Below, in pieces: positions 11,287 through 39,951 of a stretch of DNA of 64,000 bases. The stretch lies in the NCBI RefSeq assembly GCF_006345805.1, contig NC_042997.1:79856001-79920000 (forward strand). The letters run 5' to 3'. The notes under the pieces were generated by a model. The model was not told the DNA's origin. It did no database searches and was given only the letters and a program-made list of their open reading frames with translations. The position numbers were made by a program, and so were the translations under genes. The DNA comes from Octopus sinensis. Its lineage: Eukaryota. The stretch's first letter is position 1; each line of letters begins with the position of its first letter.

Positions 11287-12063
11287 TATGTGCATGTGTG
11301 TGTGTATAACATGAAGAATTCTGATAGGAATGATTGTGTATGCAACAAATACATTCTCACAATATTGAACAACTCTTAGGTAATCCACAAGTTACTCATA
11401 CCAATATTGGAGCCACTTCATGGTAGCTCTATCTGCTATAAGTATCAGGCACACCATTTTCAAATTACACCATTTTGTCTTAAAAAATAAAGAATGGCAC
11501 ATTTGATATATGATGTCTGCAATAACAATAATAATCCTTTCTAATTTAGACACCATAATAATAATGATTTCAATTTTTGACACAAGGCCAGCAATTTTGG
11601 GGGAGAGGATAAGTCAATTACATTTCCCACAGCCAGGGCCAGCTTTAGAAGGTGCAGGGCCCGATTGGGAGCAATTTTGGTGGGCCTCAGGTTTCCAGTG
11701 AACTTGCACCAAGGTCTATAGAATCATAAGAATCCAGCCATTGAAACTATGCTACCATGCAGTGCCACATAAAAGCACTCAGTCCACGCTGTAAAGTGGT
11801 GGTGTTAGGAAGGACATCCAGCCGTTAAAATCATGCTCCCATGCTGTTCCACATAAAAATACTCAGTCCACACAGTAAAGTGATAACGTTAGGAAGAGCA
11901 TCCAGCCACAAAAAAACACGCCAAACCAGGCGGGTGCCAGATGTAGCTCCTAGTTTGTTGGCCCCTGTCAAACCGTCCAACCCATGCCAGCATGGAAAAT
12001 GGATGTTAAATAATGATGATGATGATGATATGCATATATATACATACACATATTATGTGTATA

Positions 12064-12822
12064 GGATCTTTTCCTTTTGAACGGCACTTTGTAACATAAT
12101 CTCTAGGTAACTAAATAGTTTTAAACTTCATATACTGGTAGAATGTATTTATAAAACGTCATTTTCTCTTGGCTTTATTGAGAAAATTCTATAGTTTGTA
12201 AGATATTTCGTCTGAAATTTCGAGCATTTCGGTAATTTTAACCAATCGATTACCTCCATTTAGGTAAATAACATTCTGTGCATAATGAATATGTACCTCG
12301 TTTAAGAAACCCCTAACCCTAACTAACCCTAAATCTAAAATAGATTGAAATGCAATAGATCGATACTAGGGCCAGAATTATGGGTGACATTTTCATTTGA
12401 CACCACTAGAAAAAAATCCCATTTTCCGTAGCGGTGTCGTATGAAATTGTCACCCATAATTATAACCCCAGTATCGATCTATTGCATTTCAATCTATTTT
12501 AGATTTAGGGTGAGTTAGGGTTAGAGTTAGGGGAAGGGTATCTTTTTTCTTCACAAATGTAAATAAACCCAATCTGTTTCTTAAACGAGGGACATATTCA
12601 TACAGCACGGAATGTTGTTTACGTCAATGGAGGTAATCGATTGGTTAAAATTGCCGAAATGCTCGAAATTTCAGACGAAATATCTTACAAACTATAGAAT
12701 TTTCTCAATAAAGCCAAGAGAAAATGATGTTTTATAAACACATTCTACCAGTATACGAAGTTTAAAACTTTTTAGTTACCTAGAAATTATGTTACAAGGT
12801 GCCGTTCAAAAGGAAAAGATCC
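12064..12822. mobile_element. Foldback MITE, Merlin-like (GG...CC ends, 8-bp TSD TGTGTATA)
   Basis: Ends are ggatcttttccttttgaacggcac / gtgccgttcaaaaggaaaagatcc, with about 350-bp imperfect inverted arms. The identical 8-mer tgtgtata lies at 12056-12063 and 12823-12830. Confidence 0.85.
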
Positions 12823-13021
12823 TGTGTATATATATATATTTGGTTTGCAAGATTCTTTATGTGAGTTTGTGTGTTGAAGCATATTCTGTTGTGTCTGGGG
12901 AGAGTAATTTTCTTTTTGTGTCTTATAATTTAACACACTCACCAGTAAAATTTCCACTTATTTCACTCCTTGAGTAGCCGAAGCACCAGTTTGACAGGAA
13001 TATCTATCCTAAGATGTGTAA

Positions 13022-15781: not shown

Positions 15782-16554
15782 GAATCTTTTCCTTTTGAAC
15801 GGCAGACAATTTCTAGTTAACTAAACACTTTAAAACTTCGTATACTGGTAGAATGTGTCAAAATAAAACATTTTTTTCTCTTGGCTTTCTTGAGAGAATT
15901 GTAATTTGTTTGTTTAACATAGTTTAATTTTTCGAATTTTAACCAATCCTATGCTCTCTTTTGAGCTAAAATCATTTGCTGCGTCTAAAACTGAGACAAC
16001 TACCCCTCAACCTAACCCTAACCCTAATTTTTTTTCTTAATTGTTAAATTAATTTAATTGTTACGCGTGTAAAAAAACCCGAAAGCAATGAAAAATGATT
16101 TAAACAATCAACAAACAAAATAATTCTATAATTTTATACACACGCTTTCCGTATACGTACGGAAAGCGTGTGTATAAAATTATAGAATTATTTTTTTGTT
16201 AATTGTTTAAATCATTTTTCATTGCTTTCGGGTTTTTTTACACGCGTAACAATTAAATTAATTTAACAATTAAGAAAAAAAAATTAGGGTTGGGGGAGGT
16301 TTAGGGTTAGTTACAGGATGTTGTCTCAGTTTTAGACGCAGCAAATGATTTTAGTTGAATGGAGGTAATCGATTGGTTAAAATTGCCGAAATGCTCGGAT
16401 TTTCAGACGAAATATCTTACAAAGTATAGAATTTTCTCAATAAAGCCAAGAAAAAATGATGTTTTATAAACACATTCTACCAGTATACGAAGTTTAAAAG
16501 TGTTTAGTTAACTAGAAATTGTGTTGACATCTGCCGTTCAAAAGGAAAAGATCC
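15782..16554. mobile_element. Second Merlin-like foldback MITE (related subfamily)
   Basis: Same TIR (gaatcttttccttttgaacggcag / ctgccgttcaaaaggaaaagatcc) and a palindromic centre near 16155 (cacgctttccgta..tacggaaagcgtg). It has CCCTAA/TTAGGG blocks; the TSD is not clean. Confidence 0.8.
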
Positions 16555-18567
16555 GTCGTATGTAAGATTAAATTCAGAAAAAATCCTCATGCCGATTGCG
16601 ACAGTAACTTTGAATATTTAAACATTAGGTACAGAGTATAACTGGAAATATTCAATAGCATCCTTAGAAAAATTCTTTGTTACAATTTTTCCTGCACTGG
16701 CTTTCAACCCATCTGTCAATTCTAATGCATTAATGCTCGCTGTATTCTGAAACGGAAGCTAGTTTCCGAGCACCTTGCATGGTTCAAACGTGGTTGAATT
16801 TAACAATATCATACATAGAGTATTTTCTTTTCGGTATGTGCGTAAGAGACTGAGTGTTTTAGTTTTAAGAGTTTGAAATTTCACTATACCTAGAATTCTG
16901 TTGCATTCCTTCCGAATCAGACGAATTTTCAGGAAAATGCAGGTTACACTGGGAAAAAATTTTTTTCAGAATAAGGCGAACGTTCCACAAGTAAGCGATT
17001 TGACTAGCTGAAAACAGCCAATAAAAAACAAAAGTCTTGTACTTTTTTTGTCGGAGTTACGCTCATGCAGCCGGTTAAGCTAACAGAAAATATTCTGCAT
17101 CAAAATCTAATATGACATGACCGAGAAATATTTTTTAAAAAAAGAGTGCATTAAAATCAAAGTTGTTTTAGCAACTGAACCAAAGTACAGTAATTGCTTG
17201 TATGCGAATCGTTCATATGTGTATGAGTGTGTATCTGTGTGTTTGTGTGTGTGTGTGAAAGAGAGAGAGAGAGAAATAGCTATACCATGCAATATACATC
17301 CTTGATTTATTAAATTATTTCCGTCACAATTACCAATGGCAATAATGACCCGCTCTATATGAGGAGGAGAAATAATCACTTGAATGATGACTGAAATTGA
17401 CATGCTATTAAGGAAAAGGACACTTATTGCCTGGAGATGACATTAAGAGTTTCTGCCTCAATAGGTCTCATAGGCACGACAATTGTCGAACCTTATCACC
17501 AGTTGCCAAGGGACTTAGGCATATACAAAAAGTGTATTGCACGTTATGCTCTACGTAATTAGCATATATATGTGATAAGGTTCGACAATTGTCGTGCCTA
17601 TGAGACCTATTGAGGCAGAAACTCTTAATGTCATCTCCAGGCAATAAGTGTCCTTTTCCTTAATAGCATGTCAATTTCAGTCATCATTCAAGTGATTATT
17701 TCTCCTCCTCATATAGAGCGGGTCATTATTGCCATTGGTAATTGTGACGGAAATAATTTAATAAATCAAGGATGTATATTGCATGGTATAGCTATTTCTC
17801 TCTCTCTCTCTTTCACACACACACACAAACACACAGATACACACTCATACACATATGAACGATTCGCATACAAGCAATTACTGTACTTTGGTTCAGTTGC
17901 TAAAACAACTTTGATTTTAATGCACTCTTTTTTTAAAAAATATTTCTCGGTCATGTCATATTAGATTTTGATGCAGAATATTTTCTGTTAGCTTAACCGG
18001 CTGCATGAGCGTAACTCCGACAAAAAAGTACAAGACTTTTGTTTTTTATTGGCTGTTTTCAGCTAGTCAAATCGCTTACTTGTGGAACGTTCGCCTTATT
18101 CTGAAAAAAATTTTTTCCCAGTGTAACCTGCATTTTCCTGAAAATTCGTCTGATTCGGAAGGAATGCAACAGAATTCTAGGTATAGTGAAATTTCAAACT
18201 CTTAAAACTAAAACACTCAGTCTCTTACGCACATACCGAAAAGAAAATACTCTATGTATGATATTGTTAAATTCAACCACGTTTGAACCATGCAAGGTGC
18301 TCGGAAACTAGCTTCCGTTTCAGAATACAGCGAGCATTAATGCATTAGAATTGACAGATGGGTTGAAAGCCAGTGCAGGAAAAATTGTAACAAAGAATTT
18401 TTCTAAGGATGCTATTGAATATTTCCAGTTATACTCTGTACCTAATGTTTAAATATTCAAAGTTACTGTCGCAATCGGCATGAGGATTTTTTCTGAATTT
18501 AATCTTACATACGACGGATCTTTTCCTTTTGAACGGCAGATGTCAACACAATTTCTAGTTAACTAAA
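16503..18567. repeat. Near-perfect ~1 kb inverted repeat (arms 16503-17499 and 17572-18567, 72-bp spacer)
   Basis: Mirror-identical ORFs 17107-17403(-) and 17668-17964(+). By eye the arms differ only by a 1-bp homopolymer indel (T7 at ~17043 vs A6 at ~18022). Confidence 0.95.
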
Positions 18568-18704
18568 ACTACCTCGAACACACAAGTGCAAACAAGGGAG
18601 TCAGAGAAAGGCAGAATACCACTTAAATCTGAACACTACTATAGAAATATTCTTTTAAAAAAACTTTTCTTCTAATTTTTCTAAATTTAATTATTTAATC
18701 GTTA

Positions 18705-18742
18705 CAGTTGAAAAGGTCTCAAAATGACCGAAACCGGTACTG
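18705..18742 (+). ncRNA. Minimal type I hammerhead ribozyme, U3-A8 core variant
   Basis: cag-TTGAAAA-ggtc(tcaaaat)gacc-GAAA-CCGG-TA-ctg: stem I cag/ctg, stem II ggtc/gacc, palindromic stem III ACCGGT, GUA cleavage triplet. Confidence 0.65.
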
Positions 18743-18791
18743 AAATGTTCACTATAAAATTATTTTAGCATTTTCTATTTTTTACTTGTTT

Positions 18792-18795
<4 letters not shown>

Positions 18796-18885
<90 letters not shown>
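18796..18885. repeat. (TA)n microsatellite
   Basis: Direct reading; it separates the HHR-bearing fragments. Confidence 0.95.
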
Positions 18886-18887
<2 letters not shown>

Positions 18888-18888
18888 C

Positions 18889-18939
18889 AGCTTCCTGATG
18901 ATTTCTTTTGAATGAAACAGTTCTAGTCCTGTAGAAGCT
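18889..18939 (+). ncRNA. Type I hammerhead ribozyme, canonical core
   Basis: agcttc-CTGATGA-t ttc(tttt)gaa t-GAAA-cag(ttctagtc)ctg-TA-gaagct: 6-bp stem I, short stem II with a U-U closing mismatch, closed stem III. Confidence 0.75.
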
Positions 18940-19035
18940 CCTTCTATAAAATAAATAAATAAATAAATATACATATATATATATATATACAGGAATAAAA
19001 AATGGAGTTAACGCAGGTTTAAACAAGTATTTTTT

Positions 19036-19120
19036 CTTTCTACATATGTTTCAAAAATTCCACTGATACTTATTCAAAAGAATAAAAGGTATAAACAATG
19101 CAATCTTCTCTTCGGGAAAG
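19036..19120 (-). ncRNA. Hammerhead ribozyme of the PLE (inverted copy)
   Basis: Reverse complement of 23738-23822. Confidence 0.7.
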
Positions 19121-20874
19121 GGAAAAAACGAAACTTGTCAATACGACATTTTAGCAAAAAATGATGGATTCGTATAGCGATAGACAGAACGCTATTAATA
19201 TTGTTTAAAAAAACGTTATATGATATAACGTCATAAGTAGCTAACAGAAAGAGTAGGGATATTAATAGTGAATGTTAAATATAAAGGAAATTAAAGTCTA
19301 AACTATATATAATGATAGAGACTACTTATATGCACTAAAAGTATGTTTTTGCCAATGCTTACATCTGTATGCTCGTTCTATAACCGTGTTTACTAGAGTA
19401 TTTTTAGAAAAAATAATGAAAAATAGCTCAGAATTGCAGAGAAGACAGAATTTCTTGCCTTTGTCATATGGTATCGAAATTGAGAGGATCAACCATTCCA
19501 AATGAAATTGTTCATTGTGGTCTTTTAAATTCCAAATCAGTTTGCTGAGACCGGTACTATTCCGTTTATTTCTATCCCTAAATGTTGAGTAATGGATAGA
19601 AATTCTCTTAGATAACTCTAACGATGTGCTTCCAATGTAAAATTGTACTTTATTACGAGTACTGATTATACACTGGTATATAGAATTTTTAATCTTAGAG
19701 TTACTTGACATAAATTTAATTCTATTGGGATTGACTTCAGATACAATAACCTTGTTATTAATATTTCTAGAGGGTTGGATGGTAGTAGCTAAATTAATGT
19801 TAGTATTAGTAAATGTATTAATATTTAACAGTTTTTTAAGCCATTCTACTGAAAAAATTAACTAAACTGTTCTTAACTTTTTGTACCTTTTGGTTAGAAA
19901 CATTTTGGAGGTAAAGTAAACAATCATCACGATATAGACCTCCATAAATGTTAGGGAACTCTTCAGCCATTTCAAAAAGAATATATATACAGACCAAATC
20001 AGCTATCTGTGCTGAATCAGAACTTCCCATAGGTATATCGAAACTATCTGGTGTGTCTTTACGGACCCACAACTTATCATCAAATTTAATAATAGATCTT
20101 CTGGCTGCCAACACAACATTAATTTCTTCTCGGGTGAGACCAGCTTTGTTATGAGCAAGCCAAAGTGCCTTATTAAGTACTATTGGATTAATAGACGAAT
20201 AAAAATTGGAAATATCAAACTGGATAAACTTCGTACTCACCTTACTGTTAATAGACCTAAACCAGTCAACTACGTCAAATGAATTAGTCCATAAACTAAG
20301 TTTTAATGTTTTGATTAGATTAGGAATATATTTATCTAGTATATTTTTACTAAGGATACCGATGTCAGAGCTAAGAGAATTATCTAAGAGAATTTCTATC
20401 CATTACTCAACATTTAGGGATAGAAATAAACGGAATAGTACCGGTCTCAGCAAACTGATTTGGAATTTAAAAGACCACAATGAACAATTTCATTTGGAAT
20501 GGTTGATTCTCTCAATTTCGATACCATATGACAAAGGCAAGAAATTCTGTCTTCTCTGCAATTCTGAGCTATTTTTCATTATTTTTTCTAAAAATACTCT
20601 AGTAAACACGGTTATAGAACGAGCATACAGATGTAAGCATTGGCAAAAACATACTTTTAGTGCATATAAGTAGTCTCTATCATTATATATAGTTTAGACT
20701 TTAATTTCCTTTATATTTAACATTCACTATTAATATCCCTACTCTTTCTGTTAGCTACTTATGACGTTATATCATATAACGTTTTTTTAAACAATATTAA
20801 TAGCGTTCTGTCTATTGCTATACGAATCCATCATTTTTTGCTAAAATGTCGTATTGACAAGTTTCGTTTTTTCC

Positions 20875-20959
20875 CTTTCCCGAAGAGAAGATTGCATTGT
20901 TTATACCTTTTATTCTTTTGAATAAGTATCAGTGGAATTTTTGAAACATATGTAGAAAG
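20875..20959 (+). ncRNA. Hammerhead ribozyme of the PLE (5' pseudo-LTR copy)
   Basis: Identical to 23738-23822; lies 250 nt upstream of the ORF ATG. Confidence 0.7.
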
Positions 20960-21134
20960 AAAAAATACTTGTTTAAACCTGCGTTAACTCCATTTTTTAT
21001 TCCTATTATTCAAATATTCAACGTAAACACGAAGTTTCAACCTTTATAAACAAGGAGTTACAACATCTTTACTTGTGAGATTTTTGCTGTCCTGGTAACT
21101 ATTCATTCATTTATCCGTGTTAAATGTTAACAAG

Positions 21135-21205
21135 GTAAAATACACTCATCTATTTATAATACTTTAATCAGGTTTATTAATAACCTGCTAACTGAATAGT
21201 TACAG
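21135..21205 (+). other. Candidate 71-nt spliceosomal intron in the PLE 5' leader
   Basis: AAG|GTAAAA donor, TGCTAAC branch site at 21186-21192, and TTACAG| acceptor 3 nt before ATG 21209. Confidence 0.5.
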
Positions 21206-21208
21206 CAT

Positions 21209-23536
21209 ATGGAGTTATTGAATATTAACGCATCTCTTAAGGACATTCCTATTCCACCTAAGAATGTTTTCCTTAAACAACTTGTCAATAAGATTAATTC
21301 ATTCATCAACCGAATAAGATGGCTTACCTTTTTCTTTGACAAAAATGACACTCAACAACACACTAATGATAAAACATCTGAGTTCAGCAAGTTATTTAAA
21401 TCTAAAAATAGTCCGCCGCCTAACCCAAGGTTGAAGCAATTTGAAGATGATCTCTGGTCCATTGTGAGAAATGTAAAATTTCAACGGTCACCACTAAGAA
21501 ATAAACATCTGAGGTATCTTCGCAACATCACCAAAGAAATCAATTCTATGGATACTATGTTGGTTCAATCTGATAAGACTGGAAATCTGTACAAACTTTA
21601 TAAAGACTATTATTTGGAATTACTTGAAAAAGAAATTCAGAAAAAGTATAAAATTGCTGATAAAAGAATACTTAAGAAAGCCAACATCGAGGCTATGAAA
21701 ATCATGGAGAAATATAACCTACAAATGAAGACAGAACCACTTGTTCCTAAACAACCTAGGTTTATTTTGAAGGATCACAAACCAAATTTTTTTACTAACC
21801 CATCATTAAGGCTTATCTGCCCTTCTAGCTCTGACATCGGTATCCTTAGTAAAAATATACTAGATAAATATATTCCTAATCTAATCAAAACATTAAAACT
21901 TAGTTTATGGACTAATTCATTTGACGTAGTTGACTGGTTTAGGTCTATTAACAGTAAGGTGAGTACGAAGTTTATCCAGTTTGATATTTCCAATTTTTAT
22001 TCGTCTATTAATCCAATAGTACTTAATAAGGCACTTTGGCTTGCTCATAACAAAGCTGGTCTCACCCGAGAAGAAATTAATGTTGTGTTGGCAGCCAGAA
22101 GATCTATTATTAAATTTGATGATAAGTTGTGGGTCCGTAAAGACACACCAGATAGTTTCGATATACCTATGGGAAGTTCTGATTCAGCACAGATAGCTGA
22201 TTTGGTCTGTATATATATTCTTTTTGAAATGGCTGAAGAGTTCCCTAACATTTATGGAGGTCTATATCGTGATGATTGTTTACTTTACCTCCAAAATGTT
22301 TCTAACCAAAAGGTACAAAAAGTTAAGAACAGTTTAGTTAATTTTTTCAGTAGAATGGGCTTAAAAATCGTTTTTGATGACGATCTGACGAAGGCCAACT
22401 TTTTAGATATTACGCTTAATTTACACAGTGATTCTTACTTCCCATATCATAAACCGTTGACCAATCTTAAGTACATTAGCAAATTTAGTAATCATCCTGG
22501 AGCAATTACTAAGAATTTAGTTAAGAATATTTCATTTAGATTATCTAAATTATCTGCTAATGTTGATATTTTCAATAATAACGCTGAATTCTATAACTCT
22601 GCCTTAATCAAAGCAGGTTATACAGAAAAAATTTTCTACATTGATTCTGCTCAGTCTAATTGTAAATTCAATAATGTAGATAAGATTTCTAGTCGTAAAA
22701 GAATTATTGATAACAAACATAACTTACGCACCGATACAAAGCGAATGAAGGCAGATAACCCTTATTTATTCCCCTATTACCGATCTAAAAGTAAATATAA
22801 CACCTTCAAAAGTAATTACGCTATGAATACTAGTAAAAATATTTGGTTAATAATTCCTTACGGGAGACAAATTAAATCTAATCTCCCACTGCTGTTTCGT
22901 CAAGCTATTGCTAGGAATTTTCCAAATAATTCTAGATATTACTCTATAATTAATTCACATAAAGTTAGGATAGGTTTTTCAAACACAAAAAATCTCTTGC
23001 AAATTATATCTTCTCATAATAACAAACTGTTAAATATTAATACATTTACTAATACTAACATTAATTTAGCTACTACCATCCAACCATCTAGAAATATTAA
23101 TAACAAGGTTATTGTATCTGAAGTCAATCCCAATAGAATTAAATTTATGTCAAGTAACTCTAAGATTAAAAATTCTATATACCAGTGTATAATCAGTACT
23201 CGTAATAAAGTACAATTTTACATTGGAAGCACATCGTTAGAGTTATCTAAGAGAATTTCTATCCATTACTCAACATTTAGGGATAGAAATAAACGGAATA
23301 GTACCGGTCTCAGCAAACTGATTTGGAATTTAAAAGACCACAATGAACAATTTCATTTGGAATGGTTGATCCTCTCAATTTCGATACCATATGACAAAGG
23401 CAAGAAATTCTGTCTTCTCTGCAATTCTGAGCTATTTTTCATTATTTTTTCTAAAAATACTCTAGTAAACACGGTTATAGAACGAGCATACAGATGTAAG
23501 CATTGGCAAAAACATACTTTTAGTGCATATAAGTAG
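21209..23536 (+). CDS. PLE polyprotein, 775 aa: reverse transcriptase + C-terminal GIY-YIG endonuclease (probably Hydra clade)
   Basis: Uninterrupted ORF with N-terminal SLKDIPIP...FINRIRW. RT motifs: FDISNFYSSI (A), MGSSDSAQIADL (B'), GLYRDDCL (C), NFLDITLNL (E), SNHP. EN: SIY...FYIGST...KRISIH...LSKLIWNLK...CLLCNSE...RCKH. Confidence 0.95.
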   Translation: MELLNINASLKDIPIPPKNVFLKQLVNKINSFINRIRWLTFFFDKNDTQQHTNDKTSEFSKLFKSKNSPPPNPRLKQFEDDLWSIVRNVKFQRSPLRNKHLRYLRNITKEINSMDTMLVQSDKTGNLYKLYKDYYLELLEKEIQKKYKIADKRILKKANIEAMKIMEKYNLQMKTEPLVPKQPRFILKDHKPNFFTNPSLRLICPSSSDIGILSKNILDKYIPNLIKTLKLSLWTNSFDVVDWFRSINSKVSTKFIQFDISNFYSSINPIVLNKALWLAHNKAGLTREEINVVLAARRSIIKFDDKLWVRKDTPDSFDIPMGSSDSAQIADLVCIYILFEMAEEFPNIYGGLYRDDCLLYLQNVSNQKVQKVKNSLVNFFSRMGLKIVFDDDLTKANFLDITLNLHSDSYFPYHKPLTNLKYISKFSNHPGAITKNLVKNISFRLSKLSANVDIFNNNAEFYNSALIKAGYTEKIFYIDSAQSNCKFNNVDKISSRKRIIDNKHNLRTDTKRMKADNPYLFPYYRSKSKYNTFKSNYAMNTSKNIWLIIPYGRQIKSNLPLLFRQAIARNFPNNSRYYSIINSHKVRIGFSNTKNLLQIISSHNNKLLNINTFTNTNINLATTIQPSRNINNKVIVSEVNPNRIKFMSSNSKIKNSIYQCIISTRNKVQFYIGSTSLELSKRISIHYSTFRDRNKRNSTGLSKLIWNLKDHNEQFHLEWLILSISIPYDKGKKFCLLCNSELFFIIFSKNTLVNTVIERAYRCKHWQKHTFSAYK

Positions 23537-23737
23537 TCTCTATCATTATATATAGTTTAGACTTTAATTTCCTTTATATTTAACATTCACTATTAATATC
23601 CCTACTCTTTCTGTTAGCTACTTATGACGTTATATCATATAACGTTTTTTTAAACAATATTAATAGCGTTCTGTCTATCGCTATACGAATCCATCATTTT
23701 TTGCTAAAATGTCGTATTGACAAGTTTCGTTTTTTCC

Positions 23738-23822
23738 CTTTCCCGAAGAGAAGATTGCATTGTTTATACCTTTTATTCTTTTGAATAAGTATCAGTGGAA
23801 TTTTTGAAACATATGTAGAAAG
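23738..23822 (+). ncRNA. Hammerhead ribozyme of the PLE (3' pseudo-LTR copy), CCGAAGA core
   Basis: ctttc-CCGAAGA-[56-nt extended stem II]-GAAA-CATATG-TA-gaaag, with perfect stem I and palindromic stem III ACATATGT. Confidence 0.7.
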
Positions 23823-24010
23823 AAAAAATACTTGTTTAAACCTGCGTTAACTCCATTTTTTATTCCTATTATTCAAATATTCAACGTAAACACGAAGTTT
23901 CAACCTTTATAAACAAGGAGTTACAACATCTTTACTTGTGAGATTTTTGCTGTCCTGGTAACTATTCATTCATTTATCCGTGTTAAATGTTAACAAGGTA
24001 AAATACACTC

Positions 24011-24049
<39 letters not shown>

Positions 24050-24252
24050 TGAGGCAGCTAGTTAGCAGAGTTTCACCTAAAAAGAAAACAATAAATATGT
24101 CTGAGGATGTTAGAACACCTACGCTGCTAGAAATAAGAGATAAATGGCTCTACTGCTTCTGTCAGCGCACATATAATTCTAGACATATATACATACACAT
24201 GCCAGCAGCGACCGTAGATGGCCGATCCATAAAAAGTTTTTGGGAGTATACA

Positions 24253-24677: not shown

Positions 24678-27600
24678 TTTCTTTTTCCTTCTGGCCGTTT
24701 GATCTCAAGTGGCTGCCTGCTTGTGGCCATGACTCTAGTTGTCCGTTCACTAACTTCTTTTATTCGGCACACAGGCCATGACACAAAGGGAACAGCACAT
24801 TGCTCGTGACCTCGCTCCAGTTTTTCTCCATCTGGAGATCTGGTCCAAACCAGACCACAAGCAATTTAACCGGGCCCTCCGTCCAACGACGCTGTTGGGA
24901 GGCATCGCCTTCCCGATTCCAGGTGCCGAGTTGCAAGCCGACTGATTTTTCCTGGTTAATTTTTGCTCCTGCTACCGCTTCGTATCCTTTGATGGCGTCT
25001 TATACACGAGGTAGCTGCTTTCATCAGACACGATGATGGTGACATCATCCCAATATACAGCCGCTCTCCTACCGTAACATAGATCAGGCGGGTCACCCCC
25101 ACCCCGTGTACTCCAACCTCCGCAGCAATGGCTCAAGAGCCAAAACATACAGAAGAGGGGACAGGGGGAAGCCCTGGTGAACTGAACGTTCGCTCGCGAA
25201 CAGCCTCGAGAAGAAACTGTTTATCCGGCCGATTGAATCGATGTCGCTATACATAGCATTGATCCATCCACGGAAAGTCGGGCCCAGTCCGACCGCCGCC
25301 AGATACCGATGGTTAACTCTATCGAATGCTTTAGACTGGTCTAAATTCACCAGTGCCCCACCTTTGCCAGAAATTTTACCCACCCGCTCTATAGTGTAGC
25401 GTATGAGGTGAAGGTTGTCGTGTATTGTCCTGCCTGGAATGGCACATGTCTGTGCCTCTCTCACCAGGACGCCCACGACAAGCCTCACTCTCTTGGCTAA
25501 CACCTTGGCCAAAATCTTTAACTCTGTTTAGCAGAATTATGGGCCTAAAGTTATTAGTGTTATTCCCCTTGTTCGGGTCCTTCCTGATCAGTGTCACTAC
25601 TCCCCGACTCACAGATTTGGGAATTCTCCTGTTCTGCTGCCGGTTTACGTATACACCGGCCAGTATGTTCCCGAACAATTCGTAAGGAAGACCATTCAAT
25701 CCCGGCGACTTGTCCCCGGGGCAGTCGGAAAGCACTTCTATGACCTCCACAGCTGTGATCATCCCTTCATAGCGCTCCGCCTCGCGTGCCGAGAGACATG
25801 GGCCGTCGGCCAGAAAATCCCGAAGGGCATCCCCATGGTCCAGCGTCCCGCTCCTCCCGAACAACGCAGTGAAATGCTCCTGAAAGGCCTTCTTGTCCGT
25901 CGATCTCCTGTCCTTGTTCATTTACCACAGACCTCATCGTAGCATCTACGCCACGTTGAGTTTCTACAGAGCGAGCCCACCCGGTAACGTTGATACCTTC
26001 GCGACCCAATGCACGTACTTCAGCCCGGACCCTGCAACTTTCGTGTTTGGAATTGAGGTGTCGGTCGAAGGCCGATCTCGCCGCCAAAACTTGAGGTGCA
26101 GAGCCCACTCTCAACGCCTCTTCTAACGCCTTAACTAGAGACTCTTCTACTCTAGCCTGCACTATACTTAACTGTTTGCTAAATCTAATAGACTCAAGTC
26201 GAATAGCTCTTTTGAGGCTACCCCACCACCGGTTATTCAACACGGTACCAGTGAGTGCCCTCATGACTAATTCCTTAATCTGGTTACGGTATGTTTCGCA
26301 AGCCAAAAGGGTCTTGTTCAACTTCTAGTAACCAGATCCCTGTCTATGGACTCGGATTCTCGAGTCTGAATCGATCTGCCAGCCTATATCACTTCAGCAG
26401 ATCGATGAGGCGTGAGTTACTTTTCCTATCGGTCGGGCCAACGCTTTCCAGGCGTGCATCCAGAACAGCGTTAAAGTCTCCTAACATTACTATCGTCCTT
26501 GGCGTCACAAGAAAATCCTCCAGGCATCGATAGAACTCATTCCGTTTGCCCTTTGTGCAAGGCGCGTAAATACCTACCAACCTGAAGGTCTTACCACTGA
26601 AAGTCAGATCCAGAATGACCGAATCACCTTCTGGGTCGACAAAGACTGCGAGTGTCTGTAGAGCCAAGCCTTTTCGGATCAAAACCTCAACGCCACTCCC
26701 TCCCCCTGTCCAACTAGGAGATATGATTTTCTCATAGTCTTTCAGGAGGTTTTTGAGAAGGCCTGCAGCTTGTCCAACTTGGTCTCTGTAGCAACCATAT
26801 CAATTTTAAGTGACCTGAGGTCGTCGAGGAAACAGGCTTGCTTCCACTTCGAACTCAGGCCACGCACATTTAGACAACCTACACGTAGCGTAGCCATGAC
26901 AAAAACAGGAACAGAAGGAAATCTACTTACATTTTAGCCTAGGGGAAATCATCCTCAGCACTGGTGCGGCTAGGATTTTCCCCTTTATTTCTTCCATGGG
27001 CGGTTTTTCCGGTAGGTCGAACACTTTTGGTAAGTCTTTTAGCTCGATAATTTCTTTAGGAAATCTGTTCTTCAAGTCCTTGTAAAGTACTTTAGGGATC
27101 GTCGCAATGCTGTTCGGATTTTTACTGTTACTCGTTAGGTATATTTTGCTTTGTAAATGGGGTTTAATTACCCCCGTCATTGAGTTTACCACTGTGGTCA
27201 TTTCTTTTTTGGGCTTGGGTTTGTATATTTTTATCGATATAAATGTTTTCTCTTTGTGTTTTTTTTTTCCTTCCGGGTTATTTTTTTTTCTTTCTTTGGT
27301 TTTCGGAGCCGCCTCTTAAGTAGGCGACTCCACTGCTTTTTTTTATTTTTCGCGACACTGTCTCGAAGTCCATTCCTTCTGCTGACGGTGTCACTTCGAC
27401 TGGTTTTACGATTTGTTCTGATTCAGTGGCTGCCCTCTGCATAACAGCCTCCGTGACTGAGGGCACCTCCTCTTCTACATTTTCTTCTTGTTCCTTCTCC
27501 TGTGCTTGTTCCTTCTGCTGTGCTTTTTCCTGTTGGGGGCAATTCGACCTCAGGTGCCCCATTTTTCTGCATTTGAAGCACCTGGGCTTCCTCCCCTCTA

Positions 27601-28333
27601 CATGCACAGCTAATATGGTGTCTTTGCCAATGCATATCTTTTCTGGGGTTTTTTTCCAGGTCCATTGTTGTTGCCTGGGCCAAGATCTCCAGAGTTTGCC
27701 CTCGCCAGTTTTGTGGGGCGTCTCTAGAGACCTGTATTATATTTATTTTCTCCTCCCTCCCGTATAGTAGGGTGGCAATTATCCACGCAATCTCAGTCCC
27801 CGGTGAGATATTTTAAATCTTAATCCGGAACGTTCTACGTCCCAGATATAGTGGTAGCAACATAATGCTACCACTTTGCAAGGTTCGAGTTCTTTTGCCT
27901 TCTCGGCTGATTGAAATCTCGCTTCTACAGTCGCAAATTTAGTAAGTACCTCGGGTCAGGTATTATATCCGGCCTAACACTGGCCCGAGGGACTTTTCTA
28001 CGGTACTTTCTTCGAAGTATTCAAATTTATTGTTCTCACAATCGTATGTTTTATAAATAATTGTGCTTTCCTTTGTGCGATTCAAAATCACGCTAGGGGG
28101 CGTAATTCGGCTTTCGCCATTTTCTTCCTATATCATCCCGTACAAGGCCTGTATTTCCTCTTTTTTGAAGGTTATATTTTCTTTTCCCTCCACAACGGAG
28201 GCGAAATTTCTTCAACTGAAGACATTTTCACTCTTTTTTTTAAACACACAATATTGTTGCGAAAACAATGGCAAAGCTCGTTCCAAATGGAACAAACACA
28301 GTTCGTAAATAATACAAACAATTCCTTCCTCCG
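24678..28333 (-). mobile_element. Tx1/L1-clade LINE, near full-length 5' part, frameshifted, 3' part of ORF2 deleted
   Basis: ORF1 has zinc knuckle PRCFKCRKMGHLRSNCP (27278-27607). ORF2 starts MATLRVGCLNVRGL at 26897, with APE motifs (GIYAP, LGDFNAVLD) and RT motifs KSPGLNGLPYE, NFRPIILLN, QTCAIPGRTIHDN, LDQSKAFDRVNH, QGFPLSPLLY and YWDDVTI. The 3' end is A-rich near 24678. Confidence 0.9.
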
Positions 28334-39710: not shown

Positions 39711-39825
39711 GAATCTTATGTATATATTTATATATATATACATATTCTTGTGTATGTGTACTTTGTTTCATATTTATATTTGCATTTTATACCTTCATTT
39801 TATATCTTCATAATTGTACTTTATA

Positions 39826-39951
39826 ATCTCTGACGAGGCCTTGAGATATATATATAAGTAACTCATTTTTAACTGCATATTACCTCAATACATCTGACTA
39901 ATATAGGCATAATGAGATACCCTTATCTACAGGCTGAAACAGCTGTAAGAT
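39826..39951 (+). ncRNA. Hammerhead ribozyme with ~90-nt insert in stem II
   Basis: atct-CTGACGA-ggcct...aggct-GAAA-CAGCTG-TA-agat, in an AT-rich ~570-bp piece bounded by (TA)n at ~39725 and ~40310. Confidence 0.7.

What the first reader, a model, noticed from the sequence alone, without database searches (positions are those of the whole stretch)
17572..24043. A (TA)n landing pad loaded with five hammerheads of three types plus an intact PLE
Seen, in order: short TA run, inverted flank copy, HHR fragment (U3-A8), (TA)n, HHR micro-element, (TA)n, inverted PLE pieces, pseudo-LTR, intact ORF, pseudo-LTR, (TA)n. The other HHR motifs at 39826, 48576 and 52720 also lie in TA-bounded pieces. Inference: this looks like a system in which one TA-targeting RT/GIY-YIG protein mobilises itself and unrelated small ribozyme RNAs (retrozyme-like) in trans. 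It may stitch several templates, including flanking DNA, into one site and expand TA tracts.
Basis: partly seen in the sequence, partly recalled or inferred. Interest (0 to 1): 0.75.

Follow-up and report, generated by a model that had tools for sequence, protein, structure and literature searches.

The report
Three Penelope families share TA tract
Pieces of three different Penelope-type jumping genes, each with its own protein-coding parent and hammerhead RNA motif, sit side by side in one TA repeat next to a backwards 1-kb copy of neighbouring DNA, likely from successive insertions, and the intact one belongs to a young family that at two other sites carries spliced host messenger RNA, likely copied when its enzyme switched templates.

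Summary
The anatomy is real: five type I hammerhead motifs of three sequence families, four TA runs, an intact 774-aa RT/GIY-YIG ORF and a 996-bp inverted flank copy whose junction is in short-read contigs. The two 'mini-ribozymes' are not retrozymes. A (18567-18797) is the 3' end of a coding Neptune-type PLE, B (18888-18968) that of a second coding Hydra-type PLE. Each ends at its own family's 3' end on TA, outside the self-contained two-armed insertion H (18991-24013). All three target TA (191 of 197 3' ends). Best reading: serial insertions in one TA tract (0.7); about 0.07 such triples are expected per genome, so one concerted event is not excluded. Stitching does occur in this genome: flank copies sit at other junctions, and 2 of 79 H loci hold spliced host mRNA (7 exons of a USP7-like gene; 2 exons of a PKD-domain gene). 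H lacks the zinc linker found in 108 of 110 homologs yet targets TA. The scan noted flank copies and spliced-mRNA scraps in PLEs before, on other genomes.

The parts
16503..17499 (+). Host flank that is the source of the inverted copy (its left end lies in a 15784-16552 inverted-repeat element)
17564..17571 (.). Short TA run at the left edge of the insertion, after a 64-base uncopied spacer (17500-17563)
   Evidence: sequence
17572..18567 (-). Inverted copy of 16503-17499; no microhomology at the left junction, 1 base shared with fragment A at the right
   Evidence: junction in contig of run X1
18567..18797 (+). Fragment A: 5'-truncated 3' end of a Neptune-type coding PLE; minimal hammerhead 18705-18742 with U3-A8 and palindromic stem III
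   Evidence: 1 mismatch in 227 to each of 29 copies; parent ORF L138 with RVT_1 and GIY-YIG
18797..18885 (.). (TA)n, 89 bases, at the 3' end of A
18888..18968 (+). Fragment B: 3' end of a second, Hydra-type coding PLE, cut at the 5' edge of its hammerhead (18889-18939, core CTGATGA), ending in (TAAA)n
18969..18990 (.). Interrupted TA run between B and the short 3' end of H
18991..19838 (-). Inverted arm of H from its short 3' end; hammerhead 19037-19120
19833..20373 (-). Inverted internal RT piece of H (copy of 21826-22367)
20376..21161 (+). Upstream pseudo-LTR with tail; hammerhead 20875-20958
21212..23536 (+). Intact 774-aa ORF of H: RWL, DKT, RT (YRDD), GIY-YIG, CxxC/CxH; no CCHH; CxCX5C linker absent
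23738..23821 (+). H hammerhead: core CCGAAGA (C4), 55-base stem II insert, palindromic stem III
23537..24013 (+). Downstream pseudo-LTR and tail (long 3' end)
24014..24043 (.). (TA)n at the long 3' end of H; beyond it an older repeat family (74-86% copies)

Best explanation
The site holds ends of three separate protein-coding Penelope-like families that each insert at TA repeats, and it likely arose by successive insertions into one TA tract, with the inverted flank likely copied while the 5' end of fragment A was being joined. Shown: three families with their own ORFs, TA at their 3' ends, H bounded by its own two 3' ends, the flank copy joined directly to truncated A. Inferred: each element's GIY-YIG cuts TA and its own RT primes there; H's two arms come from priming on both sides of the break at two fixed RNA start sites (as shown in vitro for an Anolis PLE); A's cDNA end invaded the left flank about 1.07 kb upstream, copied 1 kb back towards the break, stopped 72 bases short (possibly at a resected end) and was end-joined. 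Each insertion leaves TA on both sides, so the tract stays a target. The hammerheads are passengers of the pseudo-LTRs.
For: A extends 5' into an RT + CxxC + GIY-YIG/CCHH ORF. B extends 5' and is linked to a Hydra-type ORF in L133, L136, L137, L122, L127; B and H proteins are 34% identical. In position-ordered samples of 40 insertions each, 3' ends abut TA in 69 of 72 (H), 54 of 55 (A) and 68 of 70 (B). Short B copies cut at the same hammerhead edge are common. Young B neighbours within 350 bases occur in 2 of 80 A/H insertions (L219, L244) and 1 of 39 long H loci (L010). Captured templates in H lie at internal seams or 5' junctions without canonical ends (L141, L181, L150), unlike A and B. 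The same flank-TA-inverted flank-truncated PLE layout occurs at L161, L162 (H) and L049 (A). In runs X3 and X5 one contig runs through 17499 unbroken, whereas X1 and X15 break there, so the inversion is absent from two other samples.
Against: A triple is rare: from 2/80, about 1040 A, 3290 B and 350 H insertions I estimate about 0.07 per genome (wide interval); 0 of 40 position-ordered H loci, 0 of 29 best A loci and 0 of 58 best B loci had a young neighbour of another family. All pieces are equally young (A 1/227, B 0/75, H 5 mismatches in 2712 to its nearest copy), so age gives no order. No empty or intermediate allele could be read. In the position-ordered sample inverted flank copies near PLE ends (2 of 80 within 35 bases) are not clearly above background (12 inverted repeats in 550 kb).
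Confidence: 0.7

Rival explanations
1. One unrepaired TA break was extended in a single episode by RNPs of several co-expressed PLE families, each RT copying its own RNA, with TA re-exposed or added between them.
For: All pieces are near-identical to family copies; low expected count of triples (about 0.07); L141 likewise has B next to a multi-template H junction; two-transcript insertions are known for L1 (PMC11702581 section 7).
Against: H is complete between its own two 3' ends; B neighbours also occur beside simple A insertions (L219, L244); many PLE families and many windows were available for such a pile-up to be picked.
Confidence: 0.2
2. The H protein mobilised A and B RNAs in trans as retrozyme-like passengers.
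For: H insertions do hold foreign RNA-derived sequence (L141, L181), so promiscuous copying is likely possible; B and H are related.
Against: A and B have coding parents and outnumber H (1428 and 5758 against 637 motif matches); they end at family-specific 3' ends on TA; they are single truncated ends, not tandem monomers as in retrozymes; known captures lack canonical ends and TA spacers.
Confidence: 0.07
3. The inverted flank copy is a long-read fold-back or assembly artefact.
For: Arms are identical; no single record spans the whole insertion.
Against: Short-read contigs of X1 span the 17571/17572 junction, and X1 and X15 contigs break at 17499 as a duplication requires. The other junctions were not spanned individually.
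Confidence: 0.03

Closest known systems
Hydra clade of C-terminal EN+ PLEs (Craig et al. 2021, PMC8557442; passages and section 11 read; supplements not read)
   Same: Under 3 kb, single ORF, DKT, RW motif, no CCHH, CxxC/CxH round E and N, hammerhead, (TA)n insertion, partial tandem and inverted arms with a one-sided tail.
   Different: H has lost all four cysteines of the CxCX5C linker that the paper ties to microsatellite targeting, yet targets TA; its tail is about 140 bases rather than 30-40; its hammerhead has C4 and a long stem II.
[quoted passage not shown]
   Same: A's parent has the CxxC linker and CCHH-type EN; U3-A8 core and short palindromic helix III are described there; most motifs are single ends of truncated PLEs.
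   Different: Nothing essential; clade assignment of A is by motifs, not by a reference tree.
PAc of Anolis, in vitro (Frangieh et al. 2024, PMC11167929; parts 1-2 of 4)
   Same: Two RT start sites give short and tailed 3' ends; both strands cut and extended; hammerhead cleavage not needed for insertion.
   Different: Poseidon clade, AT-rich rather than (TA)n target; template switching not in the parts read.
Non-canonical L1 insertions (PMC11702581; passages and section 7)
   Same: Inversions of flank at the reciprocal end, locally templated patches, two-transcript chimeras.
   Different: L1 ORF2p in human cells; here inherited PLE insertions.
Penelope-mediated host gene capture in Adineta vaga (PMC3846280; passages)
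   Same: Host sequence between pLTRs; template jumps and self-priming proposed.
   Different: There the cargo keeps its introns; in L141 and L181 it is spliced.
Metazoan non-LTR retrozymes (bioRxiv 10.64898/2026.07.22.740005, part 1 of 5; PMC7229834 listing only)
   Same: Type I hammerhead, proposed PLE origin and PLE-driven mobility.
   Different: Retrozymes are non-coding tandem monomers; A and B are ends of coding elements.

Membership tests
EN+ Penelope-like element (H) | Single ORF with RT and C-terminal GIY-YIG | tested here: met
   774 aa; RVT_1 E 1.8e-5, GIY-YIG E 3.8e-4, both below curated cut-offs; YRDD and FYIG in sequence
EN+ Penelope-like element (H) | pLTRs, inverted 5'-truncated arm, one-sided tail | tested here: met
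EN+ Penelope-like element (H) | Hammerhead in pLTR | tested here: met
   motif in all three pLTR copies; C4 in 23 of 30 scored copies; cleavage untested
Hydra clade (H) | DKT motif and RWK motif | tested here: inconclusive
   SDKT present; RIRWL instead of RWK
Hydra clade (H) | CCHH absent; CxxC and CxH flanking E and N | tested here: met
   CLLC..E..N..CKH
Hydra clade (H) | CxCX5C linker | tested here: not met
   absent in H, present in 108 of 110 homologs with an EN end; H is therefore called Hydra-like
Hydra clade (H) | Insertion into (TA)n | tested here: met
   69 of 72 3' ends
Hydra clade (H) | Placement with named reference elements | not testable with these tools
   no Repbase set; H nests among unnamed linker-bearing RWK/DKT homologs (FastTree 0.987, 30 of 120 homologs used)
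Hydra clade (parent of B) | CxCX5C linker, GIY-YIG, no CCHH, TA target | tested here: met
   CNCPDKTTC in L122; EN frame in L133; 68 of 70 ends at TA
Neptune clade (parent of A) | CX2-5CxxC linker and CCHH-type GIY-YIG | tested here: met
   CGRPNCGIC, CSGC, H..H in L138; Pfam RVT_1 and GIY-YIG below cut-off; no reference tree
Non-LTR retrozyme (A, B) | No coding parent contiguous with the unit | tested here: not met
Non-LTR retrozyme (A, B) | Tandem monomers each with a hammerhead | tested here: not met
   copies are single or head-to-head truncated ends
Non-LTR retrozyme (A, B) | Circular RNA and self-cleavage | not tested
   no RNA runs were examined

The most novel reading that the evidence does not exclude
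The H family is a TA-targeting Penelope-like element that has shed the zinc linker thought to guide targeting and whose RT routinely jumps onto other RNAs, making spliced host-gene retrocopies (up to 1.9 kb, one fused in frame to its own ORF) in a few percent of insertions; the window would then be one multi-template event at a single break, and PLEs a real source of intron-less retrocopies and chimeric ORFs in genomes where they are abundant.
Probability: 0.25. Interest if true: 0.65.

Novelty: new variant of a known kind. Interest (0 to 1): 0.38.

Why it matters
The locus itself is a pile-up of known kinds of element. Two by-products matter more. First, a young family with intact copies holds spliced host mRNA at insertion seams in 2 of 79 loci; the passages read on PLE gene capture describe intron-retaining cargo, so this would add a template-switch route to retrocopies and makes it testable with a purifiable protein. 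Second, H targets TA without the CxCX5C linker, a natural test of the proposed link between that linker and microsatellite targeting.

Tried and rejected
Rfam scan: no hammerhead above gathering score; miRNA rows are TA-repeat noise. Whole-protein Pfam scan of H: nothing. Reading the empty allele: contigs stop at TA runs, repeats are skipped, and raw-read run X21 laid 0 reads, X16 only short spurious pieces; the order of insertions and TA expansion stay open. L035 and L052, A copies that start at the same point as the window's, were examined; L035 has a diverged low-complexity inversion, not counted. Two non-TA 5' flanks (L153, L215) were searched as possible captured sequence: both single-copy, so true flank. 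L152 and L175 look like H copies split by later LINE insertions. Inverted repeats near PLE ends were not shown to exceed background in the position-ordered sample. The apparent LINE RNA piece in L141 is a direct copy of flank 1.9 kb away, not a third RNA. Paper searches for PLE-made spliced retrocopies and for octopus PLE hammerheads listed no direct report; only listings and the passages named were seen, and supplements of PMC8557442 (family tables, alignments) were not read and may list linker-less families.
Full report
Setting. The window is G000:C1:79856001-79920000 of a 2.72-Gb, TA-rich animal genome. An earlier scan note calls the genome octopus and one protein hit is from Argonauta; I did not establish the species.

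Observation. 17572-18567 is an inverted copy of 16503-17499, identical over 996 bases but for one homopolymer T. Five hammerhead motifs are present, all type I: A (U3-A8 core, palindromic stem III), B (canonical core, 4-bp stem III, a U-U pair where stem II normally closes) and three copies of H (C4 core, 55-base stem II insert). Rfam barely sees one and folding z-scores are not significant, so the call rests on core and stem pattern and on conservation across copies: A core GTTGAAAA in 54 of 56, B core in 31 of 33. Short-read contigs of run X1 span the fold-back junction; in X1 and X15 contigs break at 17499 as a duplication requires, while in X3 and X5 a single contig runs through it, so those two samples lack the inversion. 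X1 and X15 may be the source individual and are not independent support for frequency.

What the pieces are. A differs by 1 base in 227 from each of 29 fetched copies, extends 5' into an ORF with RT, CxxC linker and GIY-YIG, and its motif has 1428 exact matches: a Neptune-type PLE. B matches many copies at 96-100%, extends 5' and 3', has 5758 exact motif matches and is linked to a Hydra-type ORF in five loci. In 40 position-ordered B insertions, short copies cut at the 5' edge of the hammerhead, as in the window, are common. H has 637 motif matches and several near-full copies at 95-100%.

TA targeting and neighbours. In the first insertions along C1 (40 each; H completed with three from C2 and omitting three already fetched), 3' ends abut TA in 69 of 72 (H), 54 of 55 (A) and 68 of 70 (B). 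All families show a short and a tailed 3' end and two-armed insertions, as explained in vitro for PAc (PMC11167929). Young B lies within 350 bases in 2 of 80 A/H insertions, both beside A, and in 1 of 39 long H loci; 0 of 29 best A and 0 of 58 best B loci had a young neighbour; one B has an 85% A relative at 177 bases. From these rates and about 1040 A, 3290 B and 350 H insertions I estimate about 0.07 A+B+H triples per genome, with a very wide interval, and more if any of the genome's other PLE families counts. H is closed by its own two 3' ends at 18991 and 24013, and A and B each end at their own family's short 3' end on TA. This favours serial insertion by cognate enzymes (inference); equal youth of all pieces leaves a single episode open.

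The inverted flank. It joins truncated A directly (1 shared base) and the short TA run with no homology. The same layout occurs at L161 (121 bases, 99%), L162 and, for family A, L049; direct flank copies occur at L146, L150 and L141. These came from sets chosen for length or identity; in the position-ordered sample only 2 of 80 had an inverted copy within 35 bases against 12 inverted repeats in 550 kb, so enrichment is not shown there. Such patches are described for L1 (PMC11702581 section 7) and were noted by the scan for PLEs in other genomes.

Spliced mRNA in H insertions. L181 has 1.87 kb between two truncated H arms; its first 696 bases match seven exons on C5 at 100% with GT/AG boundaries, the rest the 3' UTR at 98.7%, encoding USP7_C2 (E 1e-54). 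L141 has 171 bases matching two exons on C4 (100% and 99%; K319L-like PKD, E 7.7e-6), joined to H by 4 shared bases and to a flank copy by 6, in one 854-codon open frame. In both the mRNA is in sense with the H arm on its 3' side, without TA spacer or long poly(A). That is 2 of 79 H loci viewed (three of them share flanks); only four junctions were searched genome-wide, two negative. Template switching by the H RT is the likely cause; LINE RT or repair patching is not excluded. The scan noted single such scraps in shark PLEs. The passages read on rotifer Penelope describe intron-retaining capture (PMC3846280).

H protein and ribozyme. H has DKT, RWL, no CCHH and terminal CxxC/CxH, but none of the four cysteines of the CxCX5C linker, present in 108 of 110 homologs with an EN end; it nests among linker-bearing homologs, and an older 66-70% relative in L114 also lacks it. 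Craig et al. tie this linker to TA targeting. The copies closest to the window carry C4 (23), the more diverged ones mostly CTGAGGA (6; 87-94%), which fits the in vitro result that cleavage is dispensable for insertion; activity is untested.

Verdict. Real anatomy, mostly ordinary cause; moderate interest from the H family's by-products.

Noticed in passing
L181:3730-5596 (G000:C1:81369729-81371595): 1.87 kb of spliced USP7-like mRNA (7 exons plus 3' UTR; gene on C5) at the seam of a two-armed H insertion.
   Followed up: yes
L141:2565-2812 (G000:C20): H 5' junction joined to a spliced two-exon PKD-domain piece and then to a flank copy, forming an 854-codon open frame; a B palindrome lies next to it.
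   Followed up: yes
window 21212-23536; L114:1898-2947: H lineage lacks the CxCX5C zinc linker but targets TA.
   Followed up: partly
window 23743; L166-L205: Hammerhead core U4 to C change marks the younger H copies.
   Followed up: partly
L254-L293; L062-L090: B two-armed stubs join repeatedly at the 5' edge of hammerhead stem I, often through a short CAG/CTG hairpin.
   Followed up: partly
window 39820-39945 and 48570-48710: Two related (68%) long-stem-II hammerheads with canonical core, from a further family whose parent was not sought.
   Followed up: partly
window 52620-52950: Two-armed palindromic stub of an H relative (75%) with only the 3' half of a hammerhead, inside a 2.8-kb TA-rich array.
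   Followed up: partly
window 24044-24200: Older repeat family (74-86% copies) that often begins at a TA run and contains an internal palindrome in several copies.
   Followed up: partly
window 15784-16552, 12063-12829: Inverted-repeat (MITE-like) elements; Logan contig depth there indicates a very abundant family.
   Followed up: no
L166-L245: Twelve near-perfect local inverted duplications in 550 kb, several far from A, B or H ends (e.g. L184, L224, L227): fold-back patches may be common in this genome.
   Followed up: partly
window 25376-27736 (-) and 49462-51023 (+): Broken LINE ORFs (zinc-knuckle and RT motifs recognised from recall).
   Followed up: no
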